DNA from: Candidatus Saccharimonadales bacterium
GTDB taxonomy: Bacteria > Patescibacteriota > Saccharimonadia > Saccharimonadales > 2-12-FULL-41-12
Length of the DNA: 64,000 nucleotides
Direction of reading: 5' to 3'
Assembly (NCBI GenBank): GCA_025451045.1
Contig: JANWLD010000003.1
Location: forward strand, 133,690-197,689
Under the pieces are notes generated by a model that saw only the letters and a list, made by a program, of their open reading frames with translations, was not told the origin of the DNA and made no database searches. A program made the position numbers and the translations under genes. Position 1 is the first letter of the stretch. Each line of letters opens with the position of its first letter. Below are positions 24,205 to 50,313 of this stretch, in pieces.

Positions 24205-25074
24205 TTAAATAAGCTGGGAAAGTAGGGCGCGGAGGGTGTCGTAGTTACCGCGGTCAGAGGTGGAATGGCCGGCGACGGTCCAGAATATCTCGCTATCCGG
24301 AAGCTTCTGGTGCAAGTCGTAAGCGGCTTTCGGCGGAGTGACAAAATCATAACGTCCTTGAACAATTTTGACTGGAACATTAATCTTGGAAGCGTTATCT
24401 AAGATGTAATTTTCCGGCAAAAACACGTCGTGCTTGAAATATTCGAATTCAATCTTAAGCGGCGTGTCATCGTATTTTTCGCGGTCTAGCGGATAATATC
24501 TGTCGTCCAGCCGATAAAACTGGATAAAAGCCGAGCTGTAAGCAAAGAAATCAATCTTGTCTTTTTTCTGTTTAAGCTGGTTGTATCTTTCCCACGCATC
24601 CGGGTAGAACATACGGTACTTTCCTTCGGTCAGCCATTCAATCTCTTCTTTACTGCACAGCCAAATACCGCCAATGACCATCGATTTGATTTGTGCAGAG
24701 TGCTTAATAGCGTAGCACAGCGCCAAAGTTGAACCCCACGAAGTACCGTGCACATGCCACTTGTCGATTTTGAGCTTGCCGCGGACAAGCTCGATATCTT
24801 CAACCAGCTTCGGCGTAGTATTTTCTTTAAGCGAGCCATATGGCGTGCTGTTGCCCGACCCGCGTTGGTCTAAGAATATTACACGGTGCTTTTTTGGGTT
24901 AAAAAAGCTTTTGAACTTATCCCTGCAGCCAACGCCCGGACCGCCGTGCAGGAATAATATGGGTATTCCATCCGGGCTGCCCCACTCCTGGACATATAGC
25001 TTGTGCAAGCCATCAGCGGTCTTTATATGATGCTCGGCAATAGTAAATTCGTCTTTACTCAGGACCTCGGCCAT
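24205..25074 (-). CDS. pip: Proline iminopeptidase (alpha/beta hydrolase)
   Basis: FLHGGPGVG, DQRGSGNS and nucleophile elbow GTSWGS; start moved to MAEVLSK, which removes the overlap with the upstream gene. Confidence 0.85.
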   Translation of the reverse strand: MAEVLSKDEFTIAEHHIKTADGLHKLYVQEWGSPDGIPILFLHGGPGVGCRDKFKSFFNPKKHRVIFLDQRGSGNSTPYGSLKENTTPKLVEDIELVRGKLKIDKWHVHGTSWGSTLALCYAIKHSAQIKSMVIGGIWLCSKEEIEWLTEGKYRMFYPDAWERYNQLKQKKDKIDFFAYSSAFIQFYRLDDRYYPLDREKYDDTPLKIEFEYFKHDVFLPENYILDNASKINVPVKIVQGRYDFVTPPKAAYDLHQKLPDSEIFWTVAGHSTSDRGNYDTLRALLSQLI

Positions 25075-25081
25075 ATGTTTA

Positions 25082-26260
25082 TTATAAAGCAATACGGGTC
25101 TTGGCGGCTTGCGCCAAAGTTTCCAGCATCCGCGCGGTGGTATCCAGCCCGACACATCCGTCGGTGACGGATTGGCCATAGACTAGTTTCTTGCCGGGTT
25201 CAAGTTTTTGAGCTCCTTCTACAAGATTGCTCTCTATCATTACGCCGCAGATATCAGGACTACCTTCGCTTACCTGACGGGCGACATTTTCAAGGACGGC
25301 TTCCTGATTACGGTAATCTTTGTTGCTGTTAGCATGCGAACAATCAATCATTATCGAAGTATTAAGGCCATTAGCGCGAAGTTTGTCCGTGGTCTCTTTG
25401 ACATGGCTTTTGTCATAATTCGCTCCTTTGCTGCTGCCACGCAGGACAATATGGCAATACGGGTTGCCTTTGGTCTTGATAGAGGCTGATTTACCCTTGA
25501 GATCTATACCTGGGAAAACATGCGATTCTTTGGAGGCGGCAATAGCATCAATGGCTATCTGTACACTGCCGCCGGTGCCGTTTTTGTATCCGACAGGGAA
25601 TGATACCCCGGAAACAAGTTCGCGGTGCAACTGGCTCTCAGTGGTACGGGCACCGATTGCGCCCCATGATACCAAATCGGAGACGTATTGCGGCGTACGG
25701 GTGCTTAACAGTTCGTAAGATACCGGCAAGCCAAGTTCGGTTATGTCGGCCAGAAGTTTTCGCGAAACCCTAAACCCCTTGTTGACATGGTAACTGCCGT
25801 CAAGGTCAGGGTCGTTAATAATTCCTTTCCAGCCGACCGTAGTACGTGGTTTTTCCAGGTATGTACGCATGACGATTTCTAACGTATCAGCGTATTTATC
25901 GCGCTGGCCTTTTAAGAAACGGGCGTATTCCATAGCCGCATCAGCGTCATGGATAGAACATGGGCCAACCACTACCAATAGCCTGCTATCTTTCCGTTCC
26001 GGTCCGACTATTTTTTCTATCGCCCGGCGGCTATTTATCACTGTTTCAGCTGATTTTTCGGATTGCGGGAATTCGCCGATGACTTGCTCAGGGCTGTCCA
26101 GCGGCAATATTTGTTCAATCCTACTATCTGTAAGTATCTGCTCTCTCATACTTTTTCTCTTAATAGATTGTACCTCATCCTCACGGATATCGTAGGGGCG
26201 ATCGGCAACCAATTCCGTTTTTGGTGCTTCTCGCGGCTTGTCTTCGGTTAAAGTTTCCAT
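25082..26260 (-). CDS. aroG: 3-deoxy-7-phosphoheptulonate (DAHP) synthase, class I
   Basis: VVVGPCSIHD, KPRTTVGWKG and IDCSHANS motifs; cannot distinguish the F/G/H isozyme type. Confidence 0.9.
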   Translation of the reverse strand: METLTEDKPREAPKTELVADRPYDIREDEVQSIKRKSMREQILTDSRIEQILPLDSPEQVIGEFPQSEKSAETVINSRRAIEKIVGPERKDSRLLVVVGPCSIHDADAAMEYARFLKGQRDKYADTLEIVMRTYLEKPRTTVGWKGIINDPDLDGSYHVNKGFRVSRKLLADITELGLPVSYELLSTRTPQYVSDLVSWGAIGARTTESQLHRELVSGVSFPVGYKNGTGGSVQIAIDAIAASKESHVFPGIDLKGKSASIKTKGNPYCHIVLRGSSKGANYDKSHVKETTDKLRANGLNTSIMIDCSHANSNKDYRNQEAVLENVARQVSEGSPDICGVMIESNLVEGAQKLEPGKKLVYGQSVTDGCVGLDTTARMLETLAQAAKTRIAL

Positions 26261-26273
26261 AAATTTCTCCTTA

Positions 26274-26306
26274 TAAAATAAAAATCGCCCGCTCTTCAGC
26301 GGACGA
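26274..26306 (-). terminator. Attenuator terminator upstream of DAHP synthase
   Basis: Minus strand: UCGUCCGCU-GAAG-AGCGGGCGA (9 bp, one G.U), then AUUUUUAUUUU; SD AAGGAG and ATG follow within ~25 nt. Confidence 0.7.
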
Positions 26307-26329
26307 GGTGCTTTTTCTTAGTAGTTTAT

Positions 26330-26410
26330 TTAAAACGCAAATTGAGCACTGTCCGCGCTAAGCGGCATAAAGTAAGTGCTAAACCAATACTGTTTTAAAT
26401 ATGTTTTCAC
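26330..26410 (-). CDS. Aromatic-rich leader peptide (V/M)KTYLKQYWFSTYFMPLSADSAQFAF
   Basis: 27-codon ORF from GTG; 8 of 26 residues are Tyr/Trp/Phe; sits between a promoter-like element and the terminator in front of DAHP synthase. Confidence 0.55.
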   Translation of the reverse strand: MKTYLKQYWFSTYFMPLSADSAQFAF

Positions 26411-26417
26411 GATTACT

Positions 26418-26447
26418 ACTATACTACATTTATTTTGCTAATGCAAA
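26418..26447 (-). promoter_or_regulatory. Putative promoter of the aromatic leader
   Basis: TTTGCA (26442-26447), 18-nt spacer, TATAGT (26418-26423), 7 nt, GTG. Confidence 0.4.
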
Positions 26448-26448
26448 C

Positions 26449-26700
26449 CTATCTTTTGAATTTGCGCTTGCCCGACCCGCGAAGTCTTCTCGCGGCTCTA
26501 GTGATCATATCCAGCTCAGGACCCTGTCTTGCCGGCGGCGTTTTCTTATCTTCTTTACGCCGTCCTTTTGGTTCTTCTGAGGCTTCCGAGGCGTCAGGTT
26601 CGGTCGAATCCTTGGCAACTATATCTTCGGCTTCGCCCGTGCTGCCTCTGACTTCAATATCATCATTCCCCAGCATTTCCATATCTATATTATAGCGCAC
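26449..26700 (-). CDS. Hypothetical disordered 83-aa protein (acidic N-terminal half, basic C-terminus)
   Basis: ORF co-oriented with the M20 peptidase gene and overlapping its end by 16 nt; low complexity, so uncertain. Confidence 0.35.
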   Translation of the reverse strand: MRYNIDMEMLGNDDIEVRGSTGEAEDIVAKDSTEPDASEASEEPKGRRKEDKKTPPARQGPELDMITRAARRLRGSGKRKFKR

Positions 26701-27767
26701 TGCTCGAGATATTTACGGAGTATAGTGGTTAGCTGAATAACTCCTTCGGCGTCCACCCACTCGCTGTCAGCATGCCGCCCGCCGCCGTTAGGCTGGATAA
26801 CGACACAAGGTATATTATGGGCACAAAAATACCGCGCGTCGGTTGAGCCGACAGAATGGCTCTTGGGGATTTTCCGGCCCAGCACTGTTTCGGCAGTCCG
26901 GATAAAGTCGATTATTTCCGGTTTTTCGGTATCTACGTTTATGCACGAGAAAAGTTCGATGTTTTTACTGTCCACGCCATGTTTTAGGCATATCTTCTCC
27001 ACTTGAGCCTTGAGACTTTCATATATTTCACTGGTTTTGAACCGGATGTCTAAAACAGCTTCGGCGTGGTCGGGAATCTGGTTCATGGCTTTGCCGGAGC
27101 TGATTTTCGTAAGCGACAGTGTCAATTCTTCGTCAGAGTAGTCTTCGCGGAGTTTGTGAAGTTCGTGTATCGTTCGGGTCAAGATTTCCGCGGCGTTTAT
27201 TCCTTTGTGAGGGACAGAGCCATGGGCGTTCTTGCCGGTTTTTGAAAGTTTGACGAACCAGGCGCCGTTGCCGGTCGACTCCAAGTGCCAGTCTTTGCCG
27301 GAATCCGGCAGAATACAAACATTGGCGCCGTAGCCTTGGTTGAGCAAGGCTTCAACGCCGTTGTGGCCGCCGATTTCTTCGTCAAAACTGAGCATAATAC
27401 CAAAATCGTATTTGGAGGTGTCTTTTCCAAGGTCATTAATTAGCTTCATATAGCTAGCGCAAGCGAATTTCATATCGAAAGTACCCCGGCCTTTCAGCTT
27501 ACCGTCTTCTCTTTTCATTTTAAAAAGCTTGTCACCCGCTGGTACGACATCCATATGGCATTGAAGCATTACTTTCGGTTTTTTGGTCTTTTGAGCGGTA
27601 GCAACGACATTAGGATAACCGTCGGACTCTATTAGCTTGGTATGCAGGCCGTGAGATTTGAAAAATTCAGCGCAATGCTCAGCGCAGGCTTTTGAGGCCT
27701 TTTTATCGGCTGTAACCGAAGCAAAGGCCACCAGTTCTTCCAGATAGTCAGCTTCACTCTTCATGCC
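26685..27767 (-). CDS. M20-family metallopeptidase/deacylase (ArgE/DapE-like)
   Basis: LQCHMDVVPAGD, GRGTFDMK and SFDEEIGG metal-ligand motifs; start placed at the internal MGMKSE (track ORF extends to 27833). Confidence 0.8.
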   Translation of the reverse strand, partial: GMKSEADYLEELVAFASVTADKKASKACAEHCAEFFKSHGLHTKLIESDGYPNVVATAQKTKKPKVMLQCHMDVVPAGDKLFKMKREDGKLKGRGTFDMKFACASYMKLINDLGKDTSKYDFGIMLSFDEEIGGHNGVEALLNQGYGANVCILPDSGKDWHLESTGNGAWFVKLSKTGKNAHGSVPHKGINAAEILTRTIHELHKLREDYSDEELTLSLTKISSGKAMNQIPDHAEAVLDIRFKTSEIYESLKAQVEKICLKHGVDSKNIELFSCINVDTEKPEIIDFIRTAETVLGRKIPKSHSVGSTDARYFCAHNIPCVVIQPNGGGRHADSEWVDAEGVIQLTTILRKYLEQCAII

Positions 27768-27801
27768 CATATTATAGGCTAAATCCGGGTAAATCGCTTC
27801 C

Positions 27802-28215
27802 TTAGGCCGCTTGCTGTATTTCGACCGGCTCAACTGTTTGAGCGGTTGATGCTCTGCCCAAGTCCTTCTCTACGTCAAGTTCGGACAGCCGATCATGCAG
27901 ATTGTGCGGAAGCTCATGGACAAGCTGGACATAATTAGTAATGGGCATGCGGATAATTGGTTTGCCTTCGGCTACCTTTATCCATGCCGCGGGCTTGCCG
28001 CGTTCCTGTTTTGCTTTGGCAAAAGTGTCGTTACGCTTGGTAAGTACCGTGCTATTCGGGTCGAAAGTGCCATCTTCGTATACATAGCGTTCAACGCCGT
28101 TTTGCATGGTCGTAACCCTCATCCTTGGCCCTTCGTATGATTCCGGATAACCCAGTAATTTCTTGCCGTCAGGATAAATTTTTCTTTGCGGCGGTTTGTA
28201 CATCTTTTTGTTCAT
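27802..28215 (-). CDS. Hypothetical 137-aa protein, first gene after the Leu/Ile/Val leader
   Basis: ORF with SD AGGAG; no recognisable motif. Confidence 0.55.
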   Translation of the reverse strand: MNKKMYKPPQRKIYPDGKKLLGYPESYEGPRMRVTTMQNGVERYVYEDGTFDPNSTVLTKRNDTFAKAKQERGKPAAWIKVAEGKPIIRMPITNYVQLVHELPHNLHDRLSELDVEKDLGRASTAQTVEPVEIQQAA

Positions 28216-28235
28216 TTCTCACTCCTCTCTAAATT

Positions 28236-28264
28236 AAAAACTCCCGCTTGGTTAGCGGGAGCTC
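28236..28264 (-). terminator. Attenuator terminator (Leu/Ile/Val leader)
   Basis: Minus strand: AGCUCCCGCU-AACCA-AGCGGGAGUU, then UUUAAUUU; the structural-gene SD lies ~15 nt downstream. Confidence 0.75.
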
Positions 28265-28287
28265 ATTTTCTTAGGTTAATTACAAGC

Positions 28288-28347
28288 TTACCCGCTGGTC
28301 TCCGGGGCCACTACTACTGCGATTGCGAGTATTAATGATTTGCTCAT
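28288..28347 (-). CDS. Leader peptide MSKSLILAIAVVVAPETSG
   Basis: 20-codon ORF; 7 of 19 residues are Leu/Ile/Val, plus 4 Ala; AGCGGG-UA-AGCU around the stop codon is complementary to the terminator 5' arm. Confidence 0.65.
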   Translation of the reverse strand: MSKSLILAIAVVVAPETSG

Positions 28348-28353
28348 AATTCC

Positions 28354-28382
28354 ACCTTACGCCTCTCTGTTAATGTTGTCAA
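28354..28382 (-). promoter_or_regulatory. Putative promoter of the Leu/Ile/Val leader, with its -35 overlapping the upstream stop codon
   Basis: TTGACA (28377-28382, contains the TGA stop of the 528-aa gene), 17-nt spacer, TAAGGT (28354-28359), 6 nt, ATG. Confidence 0.4.
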
Positions 28383-29965
28383 GCAGCTTTCTTAGCTTCA
28401 GCTTTTTGGACTCGTTCTTCGGCACGGTCAATTACATTGACAGCATGCATCAAAGCCTCAACTCCAGCTCTTTCTGAAACTTTTGATTTGGCGTGGGTGT
28501 CTATTTCGTATCCGTTATGTTTGACGGTCGCGAATATTCTGACCGCAGCATCTGAACCTTCTTCCAGATCATCAACGTGCCAGCCGCCAATATCAAACTC
28601 AAAACCTACGATAAACTGCATCACCTGCTTTGCGGCATCTACTACGCCGCCTTCTGATTTGACAGTCTTTTTCTGTCCGTTGATGGTGAGGGTTGCCTCG
28701 CAAATCCCCTCTGTGTCTCCGCTGAAAGAGAAAGTCTCAAGATTGAACTTGTCTTCCATCTTCTCCCCGGTCACTCCGCTAGCAAGTTTTTCGAGGTCAT
28801 TGTGGCCGAGATTTCTGTCTTCATTTGTTGAGAGGTCTTTAACAGCTTCCGTTACCCTCAATAGTTCATCGTCACCCACATTTACATTTAGTCTGGAAAG
28901 TTCGTATCGGACCCCGGCTTTGCCGCTTTGGTCATTTATCTTGAACTCAAAAGGCTTATCAAAACCGAATGTCGAAGAAGGAAAGTTCTTAAAGGTTCCC
29001 TCGTCTTTGATTACGCCGTCCTGATGCATGCCGGAACCGTGCACATAGCTTTTGCGGCCAATGAACGGTTGAGTTTCTGCAACACGTACGCCAAGTGCCC
29101 GCGGCGCTACGCTATGGGTCAGATTACGCAATTTCAACGGGTCGACATTTGTCCTAAGACCCAGTTCTGGCTGGACGGCTATATTACCGACCACCAGTTC
29201 TAAAGGAGTGTTGCCATTGCGCTCACCGACTCCGCCGATTGTTACCTCAACCTGTTCGGCACCGCCGAAACGCAAGGCATCCACGCTATTCATTACCGAT
29301 TGCCCCAAGTCATTGTGGCAATGGGCTGCGATGACTACATCTTTAAAGCCCTGGCTGTCCAGTTCTTCACGTACTGCCAATAGTCTTTCGGAGTATTCTC
29401 TTGGCAACATAGCCCCTACGGTATCAGGAAGCATCATAGTTGTTGCACCAGTGTTGGCTACGGCAAGAACCGTTTTTTTCAAAAACTCCAAGTCAGCCCT
29501 TGTTGAATCTTCAAACGAGAATTCTACGTCATGCGTATGTTCCTTCGCCTGTTTGGTTGATTTAACTGCGAGTTCAAGCAGGCTTTTTCTGCCCATGCCG
29601 AGACGTTCTTTTATGTGCAAATCACTGACCGGCGCGCAAACGTTAATCCGAGCCCTATCACCGGCCGGTTCCAACGCCCGGCCGGCTTGTTCTATATCTT
29701 CAGGCAGTGTTCGAGCAAAAGCGGCTATGATAGGACCGTTTACTTTATCTGCGATATTTCGAACGGTTGCAAAATTGCCGCGGCTGGATCCGGGAAAACC
29801 GGCTTCAATCACATCCGTACCGGCTTCCGCCAAGCTTTCGGCAATGTATAAGGCGTTTTCCTTATTGGCGCTTGCATCGGGTGATTGGACTCCGTCGCGA
29901 AGCGTGGTATCAAAAATTATCACATTGGTTGGTTCTTTAAGTTGTTCTCCGCCTTGCTCTCTCAT
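28379..29965 (-). CDS. LeuA/CimA-family 2-alkylmalate synthase, 528 aa (citramalate synthase inferred from its Ile leader)
   Basis: FDTTLRDGVQS, HCHNDLG, and a C-terminal LeuA-dimer-type regulatory domain. Confidence 0.88.
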   Translation of the reverse strand: MREQGGEQLKEPTNVIIFDTTLRDGVQSPDASANKENALYIAESLAEAGTDVIEAGFPGSSRGNFATVRNIADKVNGPIIAAFARTLPEDIEQAGRALEPAGDRARINVCAPVSDLHIKERLGMGRKSLLELAVKSTKQAKEHTHDVEFSFEDSTRADLEFLKKTVLAVANTGATTMMLPDTVGAMLPREYSERLLAVREELDSQGFKDVVIAAHCHNDLGQSVMNSVDALRFGGAEQVEVTIGGVGERNGNTPLELVVGNIAVQPELGLRTNVDPLKLRNLTHSVAPRALGVRVAETQPFIGRKSYVHGSGMHQDGVIKDEGTFKNFPSSTFGFDKPFEFKINDQSGKAGVRYELSRLNVNVGDDELLRVTEAVKDLSTNEDRNLGHNDLEKLASGVTGEKMEDKFNLETFSFSGDTEGICEATLTINGQKKTVKSEGGVVDAAKQVMQFIVGFEFDIGGWHVDDLEEGSDAAVRIFATVKHNGYEIDTHAKSKVSERAGVEALMHAVNVIDRAEERVQKAEAKKAA

Positions 29966-29982
29966 TCTTCTCCTTATAAATT

Positions 29983-30007
29983 AAAAACTCCCGCTTTCGC
30001 GGGAGCT
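29983..30007 (-). terminator. Attenuator terminator (Ile leader)
   Basis: Minus strand: AAGCUCCCGC-GAAA-GCGGGAGUUU, then UUAAUUU; SD AAGGAGA and ATG follow directly. Confidence 0.78.
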
Positions 30008-30032
30008 TAGCTTTCAAAAACAAAAAGTAAAC

Positions 30033-30086
30033 TTACCCGCGTGCCTCCGGGATAATAATTATTGTGTCAATAATCTGTTTACTCAT
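30033..30086 (-). CDS. Ile-rich leader peptide MSKQIIDTIIIIPEARG
   Basis: 18-codon ORF; 6 of 17 residues are Ile, including a run of four; CGCGGG-UA-AGUU around the stop codon is complementary to the terminator 5' arm. Confidence 0.7.
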   Translation of the reverse strand: MSKQIIDTIIIIPEARG

Positions 30087-30094
30087 CGTCTGAG

Positions 30095-30123
30095 ATTGTA
30101 TAACCTTGAGAATTAGTTGTCAA
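30095..30123 (-). promoter_or_regulatory. Putative promoter of the Ile leader
   Basis: TTGACA (30118-30123), 17-nt spacer, TACAAT (30095-30100), 8 nt, ATG. Confidence 0.55.
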
Positions 30124-30130
30124 CTTTTGG

Positions 30131-31981
30131 TTATTTATAATATGAACTTTGGAACATCTTTGTCATGGATCTTTTATGTATTTCTCTTTGGTGGCGCCAT
30201 TCAGCCCTTTTTATAAGGTTAACTGCTTTGATATAGGCGTGGATGGTGGCGTTGTTCAGGCTGGTGCCTTCGCTGTATGCAGTTACGGTCACGCCTTTAT
30301 AAGCCACCTTGACTATAGCTCCTGCTTCAGAATCGGAGCCGCTATGAAGGGCAAAAGGTTTCGCATCTTCAATATCCCCGCTAAAGTCAAGTATCTTACC
30401 GATGGCGATTCTGGCGGCATCTACTTCCCCCTTGTTGCTCGTGGCTTTTTCTGTTCGTCTCTTGCCGTCTATATTTAAAGTTATTTTGGCATAGTCATCA
30501 TTTTCCTTCCCGTGGGATTTTGCGTGCAGTTCACTATCTGTCATTTTTATAGCGTCGTCCTGCCCGTGGAATAACTGTTCAAGCGCGAAGGCCTCGATTT
30601 CTAGATCGGTTATGGGCTGTTTCCTTGTTTTTGAAACGGTGTTGGAGTTGATAACTATTTGTTCTATATCAAGCTTAGCTACATCAAAGGCTAGATCGGT
30701 TAATCTTTTCACGGTTTCTTCCGAATTAATTACCAATTCTGACTTGTAGATGTCCGTACCGCCAAGATTGGCCCGACCAGCTTTACCTTGGTACTTCCCA
30801 TCTTCCAATATAGCCGCGACGGGATGTCCGAAGCCTCGGTTGTCTACAGCGGCGTAGGTCGCGGCCCCTCCTTTATTAATAGCATCCGAATGAACGCCCG
30901 AGCGGTGAACTATAGTATGGAAACCGGTGACGGGGGTATCGGGGTCAAGCTCCAATCCGGCGGCGTCTAATAGGCCTTCTGCTACGGCTTTCAACTTGGT
31001 TGTATCCACCGTAATTACTACGGGCGCGGCAAACTCATCCCGATCGGTCAGAACGTTGCGTACATAAGGCGCTAAATACATATTGCCGTTGCGTTCGCCT
31101 TTGCCGGGAGCGCTGACTGACTCCACTTGAAAGTCCGGTATAGCTGAACTTCTTGCTAACGCGGCGTTTATTACCGCATGCATTGAAGATATGGTGTTTT
31201 GAACGGCTCTCTGGCCATCATCGTGGTTGTGGCTCGATATCGTAATCTCTTCCACCCTGCCTTCGTCAATCATCCAGTTTGTCGCGGCGTCGAATATTTT
31301 GGCCATGCGGATAGGACTGGCAGCTCCTAGAGTGTCGGGCAGGTTAATTACATTTATATCTTCCTGCAGTGCGGTTCTGACTGCTCTTTCTAAGAAGACC
31401 ATATCAGTTGTAGAAGCTGCTTCGCAGGAAAACTCTACCGTACCATCAGGTCCTATTGCATCTCGGGCTCTGCGTATACTGTCCACGCCCATTTCAAGTA
31501 CTTCTTCCCTGGTCATGGCAGGGTGTTTTGCGCGCATGTGTTCTTCGGCGGTGGCGATAAATACATGTATTCCGGGTCTGTCAGCTTCTTCTACGGCTCT
31601 GGCTGCTTGCTCAATTCCTGCCGGATTAGCCAGAGTAAGTCCGGTAATGACAGGCGTCCAGATTTTTGGCGGCAAGTCTACCCAGTTACCATTTTCAATA
31701 GACTTCGGTAATATCTGGTACTGGGTTTGCCCGACTGTTCTGGCTACTTCAGCTATTTCTTCTTCATCGCCCATACTGGCTGGAAAGCCAGCTTCGATTA
31801 CGTCTACTCCCTGGCTTACTATCAACTCCGCCAGCTCGACTTTTGAGCCTTCAGGGAATTGATTCTCCTGAGGCAAAGACTGCGCCCCGTCGCGTAGCGT
31901 AGTGTCGAATATCTCTATTTTCATTGCCGCCGGATCAAATTCCGGTTTAGAAGGCAGTGTTTCTACTTGGCTTTGTATCAT
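30131..31981 (-). CDS. LeuA-family 2-isopropylmalate synthase-like enzyme, 616 aa
   Basis: FDTTLRDGAQS, SSHNHDDG (HxH) and a C-terminal LeuA-dimer-type domain; preceded by a Leu-rich leader. Confidence 0.85.
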   Translation of the reverse strand: MIQSQVETLPSKPEFDPAAMKIEIFDTTLRDGAQSLPQENQFPEGSKVELAELIVSQGVDVIEAGFPASMGDEEEIAEVARTVGQTQYQILPKSIENGNWVDLPPKIWTPVITGLTLANPAGIEQAARAVEEADRPGIHVFIATAEEHMRAKHPAMTREEVLEMGVDSIRRARDAIGPDGTVEFSCEAASTTDMVFLERAVRTALQEDINVINLPDTLGAASPIRMAKIFDAATNWMIDEGRVEEITISSHNHDDGQRAVQNTISSMHAVINAALARSSAIPDFQVESVSAPGKGERNGNMYLAPYVRNVLTDRDEFAAPVVITVDTTKLKAVAEGLLDAAGLELDPDTPVTGFHTIVHRSGVHSDAINKGGAATYAAVDNRGFGHPVAAILEDGKYQGKAGRANLGGTDIYKSELVINSEETVKRLTDLAFDVAKLDIEQIVINSNTVSKTRKQPITDLEIEAFALEQLFHGQDDAIKMTDSELHAKSHGKENDDYAKITLNIDGKRRTEKATSNKGEVDAARIAIGKILDFSGDIEDAKPFALHSGSDSEAGAIVKVAYKGVTVTAYSEGTSLNNATIHAYIKAVNLIKRAEWRHQREIHKRSMTKMFQSSYYK

Positions 31982-31993
31982 TTTTTCTCCATT

Positions 31994-32024
31994 AAATTAA
32001 AAATAGGCTTCTTGGTTGAAGCCT
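31994..32024 (-). terminator. Attenuator terminator (Leu leader)
   Basis: Minus strand: AGGCUUC-AACCAA-GAAGCCU, then AUUUUUAAUUU; SD GGAGA lies ~15 nt downstream. Confidence 0.7.
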
Positions 32025-32063
32025 GATGCTTTGGGCTGTACTGTGGCTCCGATACCCTCGGAA

Positions 32064-32141
32064 CTAGGCTTCAACCATGCTGAAGCACAGCCCTTTAAGG
32101 CTGAGTAGGAGGTCCAAGTGCTTCGCTATGTATGAAACCAT
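32064..32141 (-). CDS. Leu-rich leader peptide MVSYIAKHLDLLLSLKGLCFSMVEA
   Basis: 26-codon ORF; 6 Leu, clustered as LDLLLSLKGL; its last codons GGUUGAAGCCU(AG) are an 11-nt perfect complement of the terminator 5' arm plus loop. Confidence 0.72.
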   Translation of the reverse strand: MVSYIAKHLDLLLSLKGLCFSMVEA

Positions 32142-32150
32142 ATCAAAATA

Positions 32151-32179
32151 ACGATAACCCGCTTTAGGTCTTTTGTCAA
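32151..32179 (-). promoter_or_regulatory. Putative promoter of the Leu leader
   Basis: TTGACA (32174-32179), 17-nt spacer, TATCGT (32151-32156), 9 nt, ATG. Confidence 0.5.
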
Positions 32180-32180
32180 A

Positions 32181-32273
32181 CCCCGTAGTGAGCTTTCGTG
32201 ACTCTCTCGGCCAAGTGGCCGGGAAACTTTAGCCGCCCCTTTGGGCGGCTAAACTCGAAAGTCTACTACAGGG
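32181..32273 (-). mobile_element. Palindromic insertion element, copy A
   Basis: Minus strand reads CCCTGTAGTAGAC...GCTCACTACGGGG, flanked by 5-bp direct repeat TCAAA (32176-32180, 32274-32278). Inner stem TTTCG/CGAAA; the interior carries the hairpin TTTAGCCGCCC-AAAG-GGGCGGCTAAA (32228-32253). Confidence 0.55.
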
Positions 32274-32987
32274 TCAAACCAGTTTGTATTCACCGTCTGA
32301 TTCTTCAAGATGATAAACTTGGCTTTTGCGCTCAATGATTATCGGCCACTTTTTGGCTTTTGCATGTTCAAGCAGGGTTTTGTTAGGGTTGAAGGCTATG
32401 GGTTTCTCAACCAGTTCCAACATTGGTATATCACCCTCGGTATCGCCGACTCCTATGCTTCCTTCCAGCGACAAACCTTTCGCGTCAATAATTTTTTGCA
32501 AGGTCTTGCCCTTCGCCCCTGCCGGGAAGCTGGCATAGCCGCCGAATTTATCGCCAGACTTTTTGTATTTGGTACCGGTCCATTCGTCAAAACCGTAATA
32601 TTTGGAAACTTTTTCAACTATTTCGTACTGCGAGCCGGAAATCGCTATCAGATAGTATCCTTTGTCTTTCAGCTCAGCTACCAAGTCGCGCGTGTAGGTA
32701 TAGACTTGGTCTTTATATTTTGCGAATACTTTGTCGACTGCTTTAGAAAATACGGATATATTCAGCTGGCTTACGTGCTTGTCGAATATCTCAATCGATT
32801 TATTCGCGTAGTTCTCGTAGGCTTTTTCCGAGCTGCGGGCTTTCCAGGAATCAAACAGGTTATGTACTTCCCGGTAATCTTCATTATCTATCAGTCCTTC
32901 GATTGCCAGTTCATAGAAAACGGCCATGAAAAGCTGCCAGCGGATAAGCGTTCCGTCAAAATCAAACACCGCAAACCTTTTGCTCAT
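32274..32987 (-). CDS. HAD-IB family hydrolase (phosphoserine phosphatase-like)
   Basis: FDFDGTL motif I, S/T motif II region, and GVGDTEGDIPML motif IV. Confidence 0.78.
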   Translation of the reverse strand: MSKRFAVFDFDGTLIRWQLFMAVFYELAIEGLIDNEDYREVHNLFDSWKARSSEKAYENYANKSIEIFDKHVSQLNISVFSKAVDKVFAKYKDQVYTYTRDLVAELKDKGYYLIAISGSQYEIVEKVSKYYGFDEWTGTKYKKSGDKFGGYASFPAGAKGKTLQKIIDAKGLSLEGSIGVGDTEGDIPMLELVEKPIAFNPNKTLLEHAKAKKWPIIIERKSQVYHLEESDGEYKLV

Positions 32988-33781: not shown

Positions 33782-33789
33782 AAACTCAC

Positions 33790-34050
33790 TTAGGCGGGTT
33801 TAGCTTCGAGCCGGTTGATTCGTTTTTCGTGATTTTGAACTTGATGATTTGTATCGGTAACTGCTGCTTTGACAGTTTTCATATCCGTTTTAAGTTCCGA
33901 TATATCATCAGCCACTGGAGCCAGTTTTTTATCAATCAACACACCATTGTTTTCTAAAAAGATTGCAAACTTGCGGTCTAGTTCTTCTAATATTAACGCA
34001 GTTTTGTCCTCAAAAGCCCGCAATATTGCCTGTTTATCGTCTTCACTCAT
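33790..34050 (-). CDS. Hypothetical coiled-coil protein
   Basis: 86-aa ORF co-oriented immediately upstream of xth. Confidence 0.45.
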   Translation of the reverse strand: MSEDDKQAILRAFEDKTALILEELDRKFAIFLENNGVLIDKKLAPVADDISELKTDMKTVKAAVTDTNHQVQNHEKRINRLEAKPA

Positions 34051-34087
34051 AGCTTTTAGTTTAGCATTTTTGATATACTAGGCGTCA

Positions 34088-38356: not shown

Positions 38357-38414
38357 TTAGTGTGAATGTCAGATAAATAAATTATAGCGAAAAAAGGTGT
38401 AAAAAACACCTTGC

Positions 38415-38486
38415 CCCGTAGTAGACTTTTCATTGGTCAAACCGGTAATTTTGAGGCCAAAATTATATGAAAAGCTCACTACGGGG
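38415..38486 (+). mobile_element. Palindromic insertion element, copy B
   Basis: Plus strand reads CCCGTAGTAGAC...GCTCACTACGGGG, flanked by 5-bp direct repeat CTTGC (38410-38414, 38487-38491). Inner stem TTTTCAT/ATGAAAA. Confidence 0.55.
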
Positions 38487-38603
38487 CTTGCAAGCAGTAG
38501 ACAGAACAACGTAAAATATTATTTAACTGGCCTCACCCTCTCGCGCTTTAACGCTTGCGTTTGCCGTCGGGCTGGTTTTAGACAACCTTAATAAACAAAA
38601 CCC

Positions 38604-44439: not shown

Positions 44440-45468
44440 ATGACTGACAAGACTTCCGACTACAAAATTGCGACTCTTGGGAGCCATTCCGCGCTTCAGA
44501 TACTAAAAGGCGCGCGCGACGAAGGCTTTAAAACAATGATAATCGCCCTCAAGGGACGGACTCAGCCGTATGAGTCTTTCAAAGTTGCCGATGAGATAAT
44601 TGAGCTGGAATCATTCAAGGACCTCCCCGGTTTGGAACAGCGGCTGATTGATGAGAATGTGATTTTAGTACCGCACGGCTCATTTTTTAGCGCCTATACC
44701 GATTTGGAGGCATTAAACCAATCCGACGCGCTTTACTTCGGTAATAAAAAGATTTTGCCATGGGAACAAAGCCGGACTAAACAGCGTGAATGGCTGAAAA
44801 AAGCCGGACTGACCCTGCCGAAGATTTATGATAAGCCCGAAGATATCGACGGCCCTTGCATCATCAAGTTTTATGGTGCTGGCGGCGGCAAAGGATACTT
44901 TTTGGCCAAGACCGCCGAAGAGTTTTATGAAAAAATCAAACCTCATAAAGACAAGAGATACATAATCCAGCAATACATCGTCGGAGCGCCGCTGTATGTA
45001 CATTACTTCTACTCGCCGCTAACAGGCGAGCTCGAAGTGATGAGCATGGACAAGCGTTACGAGACCAACGTCGATTCCATCGGGCGTATAAGCGCCAAAG
45101 ACCAACTGGATTTGAATATCGAAAGCTCTTACAACATCATGGGCAACCTGCCGGTGGTAGTACGCGAATCGATGTTGCCGCAGATATTTTCTATGGGTGA
45201 AGAGGTCGTTAAGGTTTCCAAGAAACTGGAGCCGGGCGGACTCACCGGACCGTTTTGCCTGGAAACAATAGTCACGCCGGAACTGGAATTTTATGTATTT
45301 GAAATTTCCGCCCGCATCGTCGCGGGGACTAATCCGTACATCAACGGCTCGCCCTATACTGATCTTCGTTACAAAGAACCAATGAGTACCGGTCGCCGCG
45401 TAGCACGAGAGATAAAGCTAGCATTAGAAAGTGATGAAATAGAAAAGGTTTTGATAAATGGCAATTGA
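44440..45468 (+). CDS. purP: Archaeal-type 5-formaminoimidazole-4-carboxamide ribonucleotide (FAICAR) synthetase, PurP family
   Basis: IATLGSHSALQILKGARDEGFKT N-terminal signature, then an ATP-grasp region. Confidence 0.78.
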   Translation: MTDKTSDYKIATLGSHSALQILKGARDEGFKTMIIALKGRTQPYESFKVADEIIELESFKDLPGLEQRLIDENVILVPHGSFFSAYTDLEALNQSDALYFGNKKILPWEQSRTKQREWLKKAGLTLPKIYDKPEDIDGPCIIKFYGAGGGKGYFLAKTAEEFYEKIKPHKDKRYIIQQYIVGAPLYVHYFYSPLTGELEVMSMDKRYETNVDSIGRISAKDQLDLNIESSYNIMGNLPVVVRESMLPQIFSMGEEVVKVSKKLEPGGLTGPFCLETIVTPELEFYVFEISARIVAGTNPYINGSPYTDLRYKEPMSTGRRVAREIKLALESDEIEKVLINGN

Positions 45469-46579
45469 CAGCAGCAAACTACTAGACGGTTATGACTTGA
45501 ATAACATTCGCATTGCTACGCTCGGCGGACATAGCGCGCTGGACGTATGCCGCGGCGCGAAGAGCGAAGGGTTCGAAACGGTCGTTGTAGCCCAAAAAGA
45601 CCGCGCCAAGACTTTTACCGATTATTACAAAACCCGCGGTAACAAAGGCTGTGTCGACCATGTCATCTTGGTAGATGATTTCGCGGACGTAGCCAAGCCG
45701 GAAATCCAGAAACAACTACGCGAATTAAACGCGGTATTCGTACATAGCCGTTACTTTTGGGTTTACTGCGATATCAACCAGATTGAAAATGATTTTAACG
45801 TGCCGATTATCGGCAACCGGGTGCTGGTGCGCAAAGAAGAGCGCGACGAAGAAAAAAACCAGTACTTCCTACTCAAAGAAGCCGGTATAAATATCCCGAA
45901 ACAGTTTGCTGATCCAAAAGACATTGACCGTCAGGTTATCGTCAAGGCTGCCGAAGCGAACCGTAAGTATGAGCGGGCCTTTTTCTTGGTGCATAGCTAT
46001 GAAGACTATCTGGCCGAGTCCAAGAAACGTTTGGACAGCGGCGCTATAGATAAGCAGTCTTTAGACAATGCGATTATCGAAGAATTTGTTCTTGGTCCGC
46101 AATTGAACTTGAATTTCTTTTATTCGCCAGTTACGGATGAGCTGGAGCTACTGGGAACTGACACTCGCCGCCAGACTAATATAGATGGTCTCTTGCGCCT
46201 GACCGCAACTGAGCAGACTGAAGTATTGAAGCACGTCCGGCCGCAATATATCGAGAACGGACATATAGCCGTCACTATAAAAGAATCTTTGCTGGAAAAG
46301 GCATATGAAGCCGGCGAGAAGTTTGTTGAGTCGGTTGCCAAGCATTATCCGCCCGGTATGATTGGCCCGTTTGCCCTCCAAGGCGCGATTACCCCCGGCC
46401 CGCCAAAAGAAAAATTGTTTGTTTTTGACGTGAGCATGCGCATTCCCGGCAGTCCCGGTACAATGTTTACGCCCTACTCCGGCTATATGTACGGTGAAAA
46501 TATGAGCGTTGGCAAGCGCCTGGCCATGGAAGTCAAACAAGCCATAGCCGAAAATAAATTAGATCTATTAATTACTTAA
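45458..46579 (+). CDS. PurP-family paralog (second ATP-grasp formate-dependent ligase-like gene)
   Basis: IATLGGHSALDVCRGAKSEGFET; overlaps the first purP by 11 nt. Confidence 0.72.
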   Translation: MAIDSSKLLDGYDLNNIRIATLGGHSALDVCRGAKSEGFETVVVAQKDRAKTFTDYYKTRGNKGCVDHVILVDDFADVAKPEIQKQLRELNAVFVHSRYFWVYCDINQIENDFNVPIIGNRVLVRKEERDEEKNQYFLLKEAGINIPKQFADPKDIDRQVIVKAAEANRKYERAFFLVHSYEDYLAESKKRLDSGAIDKQSLDNAIIEEFVLGPQLNLNFFYSPVTDELELLGTDTRRQTNIDGLLRLTATEQTEVLKHVRPQYIENGHIAVTIKESLLEKAYEAGEKFVESVAKHYPPGMIGPFALQGAITPGPPKEKLFVFDVSMRIPGSPGTMFTPYSGYMYGENMSVGKRLAMEVKQAIAENKLDLLIT

Positions 46580-49564: not shown

Positions 49565-49614
49565 TTCTACCTTAAGCTTACGCTAACAGGGGCAAAATCG
49601 CAAACTTAAACCTT

Positions 49615-49962: not shown

Positions 49963-49971
49963 AATTTTCCT

Positions 49972-50274: not shown

Positions 50275-50313
50275 AGCTAAAAATATTAACCTAAATTGTA
50301 TATTTTGTCAAAA

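What the first reader, a model, noticed from the sequence alone, without database searches (positions are those of the whole stretch)
26274..32179. Four leader-peptide transcription attenuators with one shared, apparently leaderless architecture
None of these short minus-strand ORFs is in the ORF track. Each one precedes a transcription unit and is enriched in the end-product amino acid of the enzyme that follows.
- (V/M)KTYLKQYWFSTYFMPLSADSAQFAF (8/26 Tyr/Trp/Phe) precedes DAHP synthase.
- MSKSLILAIAVVVAPETSG (7/19 Leu/Ile/Val) precedes a 137-aa unknown gene plus an M20 peptidase.
- MSKQIIDTIIIIPEARG (6/17 Ile) precedes the 528-aa LeuA/CimA-family synthase.
- MVSYIAKHLDLLLSLKGLCFSMVEA (6/25 Leu) precedes the 616-aa LeuA-family synthase.
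All four share one layout. The -35 box is TTGACA three times and TTTGCA once, followed by a 17-18 nt spacer and a -10 box. The start codon follows only 6-9 nt later, so the leader mRNAs should be leaderless or nearly so. The 3' end of the leader ORF, with or next to its stop codon, is complementary to the 5' arm of a GC-rich hairpin. That hairpin carries a U-run and sits about 10-20 nt before the SD of the structural gene. This is the logic of the trp/leu/ilv/pheA attenuators, known mainly from Proteobacteria and some Actinobacteria. Here it is built on leaderless leader ORFs, repeated four times in 6 kb, in what looks like a reduced-genome lineage. Two of the -35 boxes are built over the stop codon of the preceding gene.
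Basis: partly seen in the sequence, partly recalled or inferred. Interest (0 to 1): 0.88.

Follow-up and report, generated by a model that had tools for sequence, protein, structure and literature searches.

The report
Four amino-acid-sensing leader-peptide attenuators
A small-genome Saccharimonadales (candidate phyla radiation) bacterium appears to control four neighbouring amino-acid-related transcription units with classic ribosome-stalling "leader peptide" terminator switches, a well-known mechanism that has not been described in this lineage.

Summary
Four short minus-strand ORFs each sit between a sigma-70-like promoter and an intrinsic terminator that ends 21-25 nt before the next start codon. 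They are the only intergenic 5'-side terminators in the 64 kb window.

All four leaders recur, with the same codon runs, in up to 13 related Saccharimonadales contigs:
- a Leu run before a LeuA homologue;
- an Ile run before a second LeuA homologue, or before a threonine-dehydratase homologue in other genomes;
- a Val run before an unknown gene plus an M20 deacylase;
- a Trp-Phe-Tyr run before DAHP synthase.

In folding with a simulated ribosome, a stall on the run lets an antiterminator sequester the terminator's 5' arm. A ribosome at the stop codon leaves that arm free.

Promoter geometry puts the -10 box 5-12 nt from the start codon in 37 leaders, mostly without a Shine-Dalgarno sequence. 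This predicts leaderless or nearly leaderless leader mRNAs.

The logic is classical. Leaderless leader ORFs, a leuA leader and an aroF leader are already known in Corynebacterium and mycobacteria. I therefore file this as a new member of a known kind. What is new is the lineage, the sequence families (no Rfam match) and apparently stand-alone committed-step enzymes. Nothing was tested experimentally.

The parts
32151..32179 (-). Leader A promoter: -35 TTGACA (32179-32174), 17-nt spacer, -10 TATCGT (32156-32151), then 9 nt to the ATG.
   Evidence: The same layout occurs in 8 orthologues.
32064..32141 (-). Leader ORF A, MVSYIAKHLDLLLSLKGLCFSMVEA*. Leu cluster L11-L13 and L15 lies at 32111-32097; L18 lies at 32090-32088. 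It holds segment 1 GAAGCA (32124-32119), segment 2 TGCTTCAGC (32087-32079) and segment 3, the antiterminator 5' strand TGGTTGAAGCCT (32077-32066).
   Evidence: There are 8 orthologous ORFs with LLLSLKGLCF. RNAalifold and pair counts.
31999..32024 (-). Leader A segment 4 (AGGCTTCAACCA, 32024-32013), terminator hairpin (32024-32005) and U-run (32004-31999). The hairpin ends 24 nt before the start codon of the LeuA-like gene.
30131..31981 (-). LeuA-family synthase, 616 aa (HMGL-like plus LeuA_dimer domains). Scores are below all NCBIfam equivalog cut-offs. Inferred to be 2-isopropylmalate synthase from the Leu leader.
30095..30123 (-). Leader B promoter: TTGACA, 17-nt spacer, TACAAT, then 8 nt to the ATG.
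30033..30086 (-). Leader ORF B, MSKQIIDTIIIIPEARG* (6 Ile). The 5' helix arm AGTAAAC (30083-30077) pairs with GTTTACT just after the stop (30032-30026). Segment 1 is CCCGG (30051-30047). Segment 2 is CGCGGGTAAGTTTA (30041-30028) and spans the stop codon.
   Evidence: There are 10 orthologues with Ile runs encoded by ATT, ATC and ATA.
29980..30009 (-). Leader B segment 3 (TAAGCTCCCGCG, 30009-29998), terminator (30007-29986) and U-run. The hairpin ends 21 nt before the start codon.
28379..29965 (-). Second LeuA-family synthase, 528 aa. Inferred to be citramalate synthase, the Ile branch.
   Evidence: It is replaced by a threonine ammonia-lyase homologue behind the same Ile leader in L059 and L062.
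28354..28382 (-). Leader C promoter: TTGACA (28382-28377) built over the TGA stop of the 528-aa gene, 17-nt spacer, TAAGGT, then 6 nt to the ATG.
28288..28347 (-). Leader ORF C, MSKSLILAIAVVVAPETSG* (VVV run plus Leu and Ile). Segment 2, AGCGGGTAAGCTTGT, lies at 28296-28282.
   Evidence: The Val run is conserved in the 14 C-type or related leaders found.
28233..28266 (-). Leader C segment 3 (28266-28254), terminator (28264-28238) and U-run. The hairpin ends 24 nt before the start codon.
26449..28215 (-). Unit controlled by leader C: a 137-aa protein of unknown function (28215-27802), an M20 ArgE/DapE-type deacylase (27833-26685) and an 83-aa ORF (26700-26449).
26418..26447 (-). Leader D promoter: TTTGCA, 18-nt spacer, TATAGT, then 7 nt to the GTG.
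26330..26410 (-). Leader ORF D, VKTYLKQYWFSTYFMPLSADSAQFAF*. The aromatic run YWFSTYF lies at 26389-26369. Segment 2, GCGGACAGTGCT, lies at 26356-26345.
   Evidence: All 5 orthologues keep W-F followed by further Tyr, Phe or His codons.
26280..26312 (-). Leader D segment 3 (AGCACCTCGTCCGC, 26312-26299), terminator (26306-26285) and U-run. The hairpin ends 25 nt before the start codon.
24205..26260 (-). Unit controlled by leader D: type I DAHP synthase (26260-25082, above the TIGR00034 cut-off) and an alpha/beta hydrolase resembling prolyl aminopeptidase (25179-24205).

Best explanation
These are four ribosome-mediated (leader-peptide) transcription attenuators. Each unit runs: own promoter, short ORF, intrinsic terminator, Shine-Dalgarno sequence, gene.

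**Termination when the amino acid is plentiful.** Transcription starts at or within a few nucleotides of the leader start codon. A 70S ribosome loads on the 5'-terminal AUG or GUG and follows the polymerase. If the cognate charged tRNAs are plentiful, the ribosome reaches the stop codon. There it covers the RNA segment that would otherwise pair with the terminator's 5' arm. The terminator then forms and the transcript ends about 20 nt before the gene.

**Read-through when the amino acid is scarce.** If the ribosome stalls on the codon run, that segment is free. It pairs with the terminator's 5' arm as an antiterminator, and the polymerase reads into the gene. The runs are Leu in A, Ile in B, Val (with Leu and Ile) in C, and Trp-Phe-Tyr in D.

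**No translation.** An extra helix favours termination by default. In B and C the start-codon region pairs with the segment just after the stop. In D the aromatic-codon segment pairs with segment 2.

**Inferred insulation.** Read-through transcripts from the upstream gene carry the leader AUG internally and without a Shine-Dalgarno sequence. They should therefore end at the attenuator terminator. Each terminator would then also insulate its unit from the one upstream.

**What is shown and what is inferred.**
- Shown by sequence and comparison: the ORFs, the runs, their conservation, the terminators, the alternative pairings and the promoter geometry.
- Inferred: transcription start sites, translation of the ORFs, the actual regulation, and the enzymatic roles. 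I infer LeuA-1 to be isopropylmalate synthase and LeuA-2 to be citramalate synthase.
For: - **Anatomy and position.** There is no room for a promoter between terminator and gene.
- **Window-wide specificity.** Only these four of 644 short ORFs combine a run with a terminator.
- **Conservation in related Saccharimonadales contigs**:
  - A in 8 loci: ..LLLSLKGLCF.[MV]VEA.
  - B in 10 loci: MSKQIII..IIIIP..RG.
  - C in 14 leaders (13 C-type plus the L055 variant): MSKSL.LS.VVV.P..SG.
  - D in 5 loci: ..WF[YST].[YHP]F..
  - The ORFs stay open, indels come in multiples of three, and run codons vary synonymously (CTC/CTA/CTT; ATT/ATC/ATA; GTA/GTG/GTC).
- **Same scaffold, different run.** B and C share one RNA scaffold (alignment A1, 69% mean column identity). 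They carry different runs and precede different genes.
- **Gene swap.** The Ile leader precedes a threonine ammonia-lyase homologue instead of LeuA-2 in L059 and L062.
- **Nascent-RNA folding.** With a ribosome on the run, the nascent RNA folds at -12 to -30 kcal/mol and the terminator's 5' arm is sequestered. With a ribosome at the stop it folds at 0 to -7 kcal/mol. In B, C and D the arm is then mostly free. In A it remains about as paired as in the stalled state (0.86 in the window's own leader). This was run on 34 leaders.
- **Equilibrium terminator probability.** In D it drops from 1.0 to about 0.2 only while the A site is on Q7-T12 (the YWF run). In A the terminator is forced from codon 19-20 onward in all 8 orthologues.
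- **Covariation.** The A antiterminator is 96.8% paired, and 3 of its 12 pairs change on both sides; 3-4 of 500 shuffles reach the observed values. The D consensus has 6 compensatory pairs.
- **Promoter geometry.** In 37 leaders the -35 box is TTGACA in 31 of 32 A-C leaders. The -10 box lies 5-12 nt from the start codon (modes 7 and 9). Thirty-three have no SD-like tetramer, whereas the structural genes carry AAGGAG-type sites.
- **Weak Rfam matches.** Sub-threshold Trp_leader and Phe_leader matches fall on the C, D and B leaders.
Against: - There are no transcript or ribosome data, so start sites, premature 3' ends and regulation are all untested.
- **B and C covariation.** The paired segments are almost invariant, so covariation does not exceed the shuffles. 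Structure there rests on conservation and energetics.
- **Weak shuffle control.** A GC-rich 5' arm finds some partner in 1-35% of mononucleotide shuffles.
- **Equilibrium folds.** In C, and in D of L062 and L063, the terminator always wins at equilibrium. Kinetic control must be assumed there.
- **Leader A.** It has five alternating segments. The simple model favours the antiterminator for A-site codons 14-18 (L15, L18). For a stall on L11-L13 it gives mixed results across orthologues. In the nascent-RNA folds its terminator arm is about as paired with the ribosome at the stop as with a stalled one, so for A the discrimination rests on folding energy and the equilibrium model.
- **Start codons.** D here, D in L064 and B in L051 start with GTG.
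- **Leader C target.** The genes downstream of C have no recognisable link to valine.
- **Missing pathway genes.** No other leu, ilv or aro genes lie in the 64 kb window.
Confidence: 0.85

Rival explanations
1. The leaders are structured regulatory RNAs that sense something without translation. Candidates are a riboswitch, a T-box-like tRNA sensor, or a protein-binding terminator/antiterminator switch. On this reading the ORFs are incidental.
For: - Leader A is conserved at the nucleotide level, including third codon positions (CTCAGCCTTAAAGGGCTGTGCTTCA is almost invariant). It is more elaborately structured than a minimal attenuator.
- In B and C the conserved parts are the RNA helices, not the peptide as a whole.
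- Equilibrium folding of A does not place the L11-L13 run in the ideal stall position.
Against: - No Rfam family reaches threshold. No T-box or riboswitch match appears even at E up to 10.
- Every leader keeps an open frame of similar length in all orthologues.
- The only strongly conserved coding feature outside the helices is the codon run, and it varies synonymously.
- Four different runs match four different downstream functions. The same B/C scaffold carries Ile or Val runs according to the gene behind it.
Confidence: 0.06
2. The hairpins are ordinary, partly leaky intrinsic terminators or insulators between adjacent genes. The short ORFs and their runs have no sensing role, and expression is constitutive read-through.
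For: - The promoters abut or overlap the preceding stop codons, so each terminator is also the first terminator met by upstream transcripts.
- The default fold without a ribosome is the terminator in B, C and D.
Against: - A terminator placed after a conserved promoter and 21-25 nt before the gene it precedes would only waste transcription unless it were conditional.
- Conserved complementary antiterminator strands overlap the stop codon.
- The codon runs are conserved in orthologues at 53-85% protein identity.
Confidence: 0.05
3. The short ORFs encode small peptides with a function of their own in trans. This could be instead of, or in addition to, attenuation.
For: - The peptide ends are conserved: MSK...P(E)xSG in B and C, and LKGLCF.MVEA in A.
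- A precedent exists for a trans-acting leader peptide, peTrpL of Sinorhizobium (PMC7298713).
Against: The conserved peptide ends coincide with the RNA helices. In B and C these are the start-region helix, CCCGG/GCGGG and the antiterminator. In A they are segments 2 and 3. Their conservation is therefore explained at the RNA level.
Confidence: 0.04

Closest known systems
Leaderless leader-peptide attenuators of Actinobacteria: Corynebacterium glutamicum ilvBNC, leuA, trpE and aroF leaders, and mycobacterial polycysteine leaderless ORFs
   Same: - The leader ORF is translated without a ribosome binding site or from a leaderless mRNA.
- A Leu run precedes leuA, and an aromatic run (Phe-Tyr-Phe) precedes the DAHP synthase gene aroF.
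- The C. glutamicum ilvBNC model has three hairpins. Its first hairpin blocks leaderless initiation and permits the terminator, acting as an anti-antiterminator. This matches the start-region helix of leaders B and C.
- Sources: PMC4046766, PMC3890552, PMC11857589, the Morbach 2000 reference cited there, and bioRxiv 10.1101/834739.
   Different: - There is no sequence relationship, and no Rfam match.
- The lineage is different (Saccharimonadales, candidate phyla radiation).
- Four units lie in tandem within 6 kb, and two of them are paralogous cassettes with swapped codon runs.
- The controlled genes are single committed-step enzymes, not whole operons.
- Transcription start sites are not mapped here.
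Classical enterobacterial attenuators (trpL, leuL, pheL, ilvL, hisL, thrL; Rfam RF00513, RF00512, RF01859 and others)
   Same: - The logic uses four (or more) segments: a pause or anti-antiterminator helix, an antiterminator and a terminator.
- Regulatory codons lie in or just before segment 1.
- The stop codon lies next to the antiterminator's 5' strand.
- D is a canonical case, with the aromatic codons inside segment 1.
   Different: - Those leader ORFs have a Shine-Dalgarno sequence and a 5' UTR, whereas these do not.
- Rfam scores reach only 20-21 bits against cut-offs of 41-55.
- A uses five alternating segments.
T-box leaders and amino-acid riboswitches
   Same: They are also 5' terminator/antiterminator switches that report amino-acid supply upstream of amino-acid genes.
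   Different: They need no ORF, and they have conserved specifier or T-box motifs or ligand pockets. None of these was detected here. Here the conserved variable element is a translated codon run.

Membership tests
Ribosome-mediated (leader-peptide) transcription attenuator | A short ORF in the 5' leader carries clustered codons for the regulating amino acid. | tested here: met
   Runs: LLLSL..L (A), II..IIII (B), VVV (C), YWF..YF (D). They are conserved in orthologues.
Ribosome-mediated (leader-peptide) transcription attenuator | An intrinsic terminator lies between the leader ORF and the structural gene, with no promoter after it. | tested here: met
   The hairpins fold at -9.8 to -17.7 kcal/mol, carry a U-run and end 21-25 nt before the start codon.
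Ribosome-mediated (leader-peptide) transcription attenuator | An antiterminator excludes the terminator, and its 5' strand is masked by a ribosome at the stop codon. | tested here: met
   (34 leaders). In A the arm stays largely paired even with the ribosome at the stop. Conservation. Covariation is significant only for A (weakly) and is present in D. It is not above the shuffles in B and C.
Ribosome-mediated (leader-peptide) transcription attenuator | A ribosome stalled on the regulatory codons leaves the antiterminator strand free. | tested here: inconclusive
   Met in the model for B, C and D and for L15/L18 of A. For L11-L13 of A the equilibrium model gives terminator in 5 orthologues and antiterminator in 3.
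Ribosome-mediated (leader-peptide) transcription attenuator | The controlled gene belongs to the metabolism of the sensed amino acid. | tested here: inconclusive
   D: DAHP synthase scores above the equivalog cut-off. A and B: LeuA-family proteins score below the equivalog cut-offs, so substrate is not assignable from sequence. The Ile leader also precedes a threonine ammonia-lyase homologue. C: an unknown protein plus an M20 deacylase, with no demonstrable link to Val.
Ribosome-mediated (leader-peptide) transcription attenuator | Premature termination is relieved by starvation for the amino acid. | not testable with these tools
   This needs Term-seq or Northern blots, or reporters with and without starvation.
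Leaderless attenuator subtype (Corynebacterium and Mycobacterium) | The transcription start lies at, or within about 3 nt of, the leader start codon, with no Shine-Dalgarno sequence. | tested here: inconclusive
   In 37 leaders the -10 box lies 5-12 nt from the start codon and 33 have no SD-like tetramer. This predicts a 0-5 nt 5' UTR. The start sites themselves are not testable here.
Rfam leader families (Leu_leader, Trp_leader RF00513, Phe_leader RF01859, Thr/His leaders, leu-phe leader) | The covariance-model score reaches the family's gathering threshold. | tested here: not met
   No match at gathering threshold. The best scores are 20-21 bits against thresholds of 41 and 55, with E of 1.3-9.3.
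T-box leader or amino-acid riboswitch | Conserved sequence and structure motifs recognised by Rfam models. | tested here: not met
   No T-box or riboswitch hit appears even at E up to 10 in 26000-32400.

The most novel reading that the evidence does not exclude
This reduced-genome, probably host-dependent Saccharimonadales clade may keep only the first committed, normally feedback-controlled enzymes of the Leu, Ile and aromatic pathways. Those are isopropylmalate synthase, citramalate synthase or threonine dehydratase, and DAHP synthase, kept together with a deacylase. It would switch each one on when its own ribosomes starve for the matching amino acid. The intermediates would then be completed by, or used to drive, a partner organism's pathways. 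That would be starvation-triggered metabolic hand-off or host manipulation rather than autonomous biosynthesis.

A more modest second reading, supported by the data, is that the B/C cassette is a portable attenuator scaffold. Its specificity would have been reprogrammed by swapping the codon run after duplication.
Probability: 0.12. Interest if true: 0.85.

Novelty: new member of a known kind. Interest (0 to 1): 0.6.

Why it matters
- **Regulation in this lineage.** As far as the searchable literature shows, leader-peptide attenuation has not been reported in Saccharibacteria or the candidate phyla radiation. Their gene regulation is almost unknown, and they are usually described as unable to make amino acids.
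- **Independent functional labels.** The four leaders annotate divergent or unknown genes. The first LeuA homologue is tied to Leu. The second LeuA homologue and a truncated threonine dehydratase are tied to Ile. An unknown protein plus an M20 deacylase is tied to Val or branched-chain supply. DAHP synthase is tied to all three aromatic amino acids.
- **Transcription and translation.** The design implies that transcription-translation coupling and leaderless initiation operate in this lineage.
- **A testable question.** Either a soil or environmental Saccharimonadales clade does make branched-chain and aromatic amino acids, or it runs only the committed steps.
- **Evolution of specificity.** The paralogous B and C cassettes are a clean natural example of attenuator specificity evolving by replacement of the codon run.

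Tried and rejected
- **Rfam.** The gathering-threshold search of the whole window found only three tRNAs. The permissive search of the region found only chance-level hits.
- **Genome scan.** Scanning genome contigs with the 528-aa protein gave one close relative, L001. The other 46 loci are ordinary distant LeuA homologues and were not used.
- **Metagenome scan.** An exact-pattern scan for the B/C scaffold returned only six contigs, so the family is rare in that collection.
- **Equilibrium folding.** It cannot decide C, or D in L062 and L063, and it gives mixed results for a stall on L11-L13 in A. I used nascent-transcript folds instead.
- **Shuffle control.** The control for "5' arm paired" is weak, with 1-35% of shuffles passing.
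- **Covariation tests.** On the B/C helices they do not exceed the shuffles, because those segments are nearly invariant.
- **Solved structures.** A sequence search of solved structures cannot separate isopropylmalate synthase from citramalate synthase for either LeuA homologue.
- **Small proteins after leader C.** They have no Pfam or NCBIfam match and are barely alignable with each other. I did not pursue structure prediction.
- **Extending the window.** Exact look-ups of the window's end ORFs failed. Pathway completeness therefore could not be checked. No other leu, ilv or aro genes occur in the 64 kb.
- **Transfer from Actinobacteria.** I considered it, but the nearest homologues outside Saccharimonadales are taxonomically mixed. 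I did not run a phylogeny.

Full report
**What is there**

On the minus strand between 32179 and 26280 there are four units with one layout: promoter-like boxes, a short ORF, a GC-rich hairpin with a U-run, a strong Shine-Dalgarno sequence, then a gene.
- Leader A (ORF 32141-32064, MVSYIAKHLDLLLSLKGLCFSMVEA) precedes a 616-aa LeuA-family protein.
- Leader B (30086-30033, MSKQIIDTIIIIPEARG) precedes a 528-aa LeuA-family protein.
- Leader C (28347-28288, MSKSLILAIAVVVAPETSG) precedes a 137-aa unknown protein, an M20 ArgE/DapE-type deacylase and an 83-aa ORF.
- Leader D (26410-26330, VKTYLKQYWFSTYFMPLSADSAQFAF) precedes a type I DAHP synthase and an alpha/beta hydrolase.

Both LeuA homologues score far below the NCBIfam equivalog cut-offs. 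The DAHP synthase scores above its cut-off.

**Is it more than chance?**

- The terminators of B, C and D are the three best terminator-like sites in 22-36 kb.
- In my scan of the whole 64 kb, only six terminator hairpin hits lie outside ORFs. Four are these, each 21-25 nt upstream of the next start codon on the same strand and 116-250 nt after the previous gene. The other two are the two strands of one hairpin near 59726-59743.
- Among 644 short ORFs (10-40 codons, six frames), few meet the run criteria: 4 Leu in 5 codons, 6 Ile in 8, VVV, or 5 aromatic in 7. The only ones also followed by a terminator are the four leaders.
- Whole-peptide composition alone is significant only for B and D (P about 7e-4 and 9e-4). 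It is not significant for A (0.03) or C (0.13).

**Relatives**

The 528-aa protein has only about eight close homologues among 5.8 billion clustered proteins. It has one close hit among GTDB species representatives, a Candidatus Saccharimonadales MAG (L001, 67% identity). The DAHP synthase is commoner in Saccharimonadales.

I fetched contigs through these proteins and through one exact-pattern metagenome scan. They show a conserved cluster: HAD phosphatase, LeuA-1, LeuA-2 or (unknown plus PALP enzyme), unknown plus M20, small ORF, DAHP synthase, hydrolase.

All intergenic leaders recur.
- A in 8 loci, for example MVSIIKKQSDLLLSLKGLCFNMVGA and MVLVKKQLDLLLLSLNGLCFNIAEA.
- B in 10 loci, for example MSKQIIIAEIIIIPGGRG and MSKQMIIISIIISPTSG.
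- C in 14 leaders (13 C-type plus the L055 variant), for example MSKSLVLSMVVVIPETSG and MSKSLVLIVVVVPEERG.
- D in 5 loci: MKTHNGQIWFYNYFT..., MLIRSIQHWFYNHFFT..., MRNKAQNWFYAYFT... and VKKHMSQYWFTPFI...

The frames stay open and length changes come in whole codons. The run codons vary synonymously (CTC/CTA/CTT, ATT/ATC/ATA, GTA/GTG/GTC), while residues outside the runs and helices drift.

B and C are paralogues of one cassette. They share the MSK start, the CCCGG...GCGGG-TAA-GCTTGT motif, the CTCCCGC/GCGGGAG terminator and the TTTTTAATTT tail (alignment A1). They carry different runs before different genes.

In L059 and L062 the Ile leader precedes a roughly 340-350-aa threonine ammonia-lyase homologue, directly in L059 and after a small unknown ORF in L062, instead of LeuA-2. 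Both enzymes feed 2-oxobutyrate into isoleucine synthesis. From this I infer that LeuA-2 is a citramalate synthase and LeuA-1, behind the Leu leader, is isopropylmalate synthase. Sequence comparison with solved structures cannot decide this.

**Structures**

*Leader D* is a canonical four-segment attenuator.
- The aromatic codons (CAG TAT TGG) lie in segment 1.
- Segment 1 pairs with segment 2. Segment 2 (GCGGACAGTGCT) alternatively pairs with AGCAC...GTCCGC, which is the terminator's 5' arm.
- The five-sequence consensus shows six compensatory pairs.
- With a simulated ribosome masking up to 12 nt beyond the A-site codon, the terminator probability changes sharply. It is 1.0 without a ribosome, about 0.2 for A-site codons 7-12, and 1.0 from codon 13 on.

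*Leaders B and C* work as follows.
- The strand GCGGG-UAA-AGCU(U), which spans the stop codon, pairs with (A)AGCU-CCCGC, the terminator's 5' arm and its flank.
- A small CCCG/CGGG hairpin can hold that strand.
- The start-codon region (AUGAGC or AGUAAAC) pairs with the segment just after the stop (GCUUGU or GUUUACU).
- This last helix matches the function proposed for hairpin H1 of the leaderless C. glutamicum ilvBNC attenuator. There H1 blocks initiation and permits termination (PMC11857589).
- Pairing is well kept: terminator 98.7%, antiterminator core 93%, start helix 76.5%. These segments are almost invariant, so covariation does not exceed the shuffles.

*Leader A* has five alternating complementary segments: GAAGCA, UGCUUCAAC, GGUUGAAGCCU, AGGCUUCAACC and the terminator's 3' arm.
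- RNAalifold returns the 1:2 helix plus the 12-bp antiterminator as the consensus.
- The antiterminator has 3 pairs changed on both sides and 96.8% of cells paired; 3-4 of 500 shuffles reach the observed values.
- The terminator uses a different register in the window (AGGCUUC/GAAGCCU) than in most relatives (AUCAGGC/GCCUGAU). The antiterminator strand is kept in both.

**Ribosome-position logic**

I ran nascent-transcript folds on RNA from the ribosome's leading edge to the terminator loop, that is, before the 3' arm exists. I did this for 34 leaders.
- With a stall on the run, the fold is -12 to -30 kcal/mol and the terminator's 5' arm is sequestered.
- With the ribosome at the stop codon, the fold is 0 to -7 kcal/mol. 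In B, C and D the arm is then mostly free. In A it stays about as paired as in the stalled state (0.86 in the window's own leader), so for A the contrast rests on the energy difference and on the equilibrium model.
- The terminators themselves fold at -7 to -20 kcal/mol.
- The antiterminators are thus comparable in stability to the terminators. From my own memory of the E. coli trp attenuator, not checked here, the same relation holds there and the decision is kinetic.

Three caveats apply.
- At equilibrium the terminator always wins in C and in two D orthologues.
- In A the model favours antitermination for A-site codons 14-18 (L15, L18) in all eight orthologues and forces termination from codon 19-20 on. 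A stall on L11-L13 gives mixed outcomes.
- A mononucleotide-shuffle control for arm pairing is weak.

**Leaderless design**

In 37 leaders from 14 contigs the -35 box is TTGACA in 31 of 32 A-C cases, with spacers of 16-18 nt. The -10 box ends 5-12 nt (modes 7 and 9) before the start codon. Thirty-three have no SD-like tetramer; the few GGTG or GGAG matches overlap the -10 box. The structural genes have AAGGAG-type sites. This predicts 5' UTRs of 0-5 nt, but it remains a prediction.

The promoters touch the preceding genes. The stop codon lies inside TTGACA for C here. It also lies inside TTGACA for A in the orthologues L001, L048, L056 and L062.

From this I infer a consequence. Transcripts arriving from upstream carry the leader AUG internally and untranslatable, and they should end at the attenuator terminator. 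Each terminator would therefore also insulate its unit.

**Comparison with what is known**

The logic is that of classical attenuation. The closest precedents are actinobacterial.
- C. glutamicum has leader peptides before trpE, leuA (four Leu), ilvB and aroF (Phe-Tyr-Phe before a DAHP synthase) (PMC4046766, PMC3890552).
- Its ilvB leader is translated without a ribosome binding site (Morbach 2000, cited in PMC4046766 and PMC11857589).
- Mycobacteria use leaderless polycysteine ORFs as attenuators, with AUG or GUG 5' ends (bioRxiv 10.1101/834739).

None of the Rfam leader families matches. Full-text searches found no paper linking Saccharibacteria, Patescibacteria or the candidate phyla radiation with leader peptides or attenuation. 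They also found none on these enzymes in that lineage.

I therefore file the finding as a new member of a known kind. It comprises new sequence families in a new lineage, with a known mechanism and a known leaderless subtype.

**Open question**

No other leu, ilv or aro gene lies in the 64 kb window. None lies in the 20 kb around the cluster in L048 either.

Either the rest of the pathways is elsewhere in these roughly 0.9-Mb genomes, or only the committed steps are kept.

The second possibility is the most novel reading that the evidence does not exclude.

Noticed in passing
window 32183-32272 (-) and 38414-38487 (+): A roughly 90-nt insertion lies between the HAD gene's stop codon and leader A's -35 box. 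It is flanked by an 8-nt direct repeat GGTTTGAC. Its terminal inverted repeats are CCCTGTAGTAGACTTT...GAAAGCTCACTACGGGG, and it folds at -58.4 kcal/mol. Orthologues lack it; there the HAD stop codon sits inside the TTGACA box. A second element with the same termini but a different interior lies at 38414-38487. Together they look like a small MITE-like repeat family.
   Followed up: partly
window 33782-34087; L048 4348-5406: L048 has an aspartate-semialdehyde-dehydrogenase-type gene (Semialdhyde_dh) between the AA_kinase and exonuclease genes. The window has no tblastn match to it. It has a 306-nt gap with an 86-aa ORF there instead. The neighbouring AA_kinase is 91% identical between the two genomes.
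   Followed up: partly
L059 2569-3618; L062 3883-4905; L057 1-363: Some relatives carry a roughly 340-350-aa threonine ammonia-lyase homologue where this window has LeuA-2. The L059 protein's matches end before the C-terminal part of the longer IlvA profiles. It sits behind the same Ile leader in L059 and L062. In L062 and L064 an extra unknown ORF of about 145 aa follows the Ile leader.
   Followed up: partly
L055 666-780; L058 576-690 (-): A third version of the B/C scaffold encodes MCKQNIIKVVILSLSSG (mixed Ile, Val and Leu). It precedes a 68-aa ORF of unknown function, in a different genomic context near a ribosomal protein L10-like gene.
   Followed up: no
window 27802-28215 (-) and orthologues: The first gene behind leader C (137-171 aa) is always present but evolves very fast. 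Only two short motifs are shared: G..RYVY.DGT.D and LYGLHGQDLDEFLA. It has no Pfam or NCBIfam match.
   Followed up: partly
window 44440-46579 (+): Two tandem genes carry DUF1246 plus DUF1297 domains, which I recall (not checked here) as the archaeal PurP-type purine-synthesis enzyme family. They lie next to OMP decarboxylase, adenylosuccinate synthetase and GMP synthase genes (47604-51840). This is more nucleotide biosynthesis than I would expect for Saccharibacteria.
   Followed up: no
window 30131-31981 (-): LeuA-1 is 616 aa here but 530-596 aa in the relatives. Its HMGL-like domain match spans 314 residues for a 260-position profile, which suggests lineage-specific insertions.
   Followed up: no
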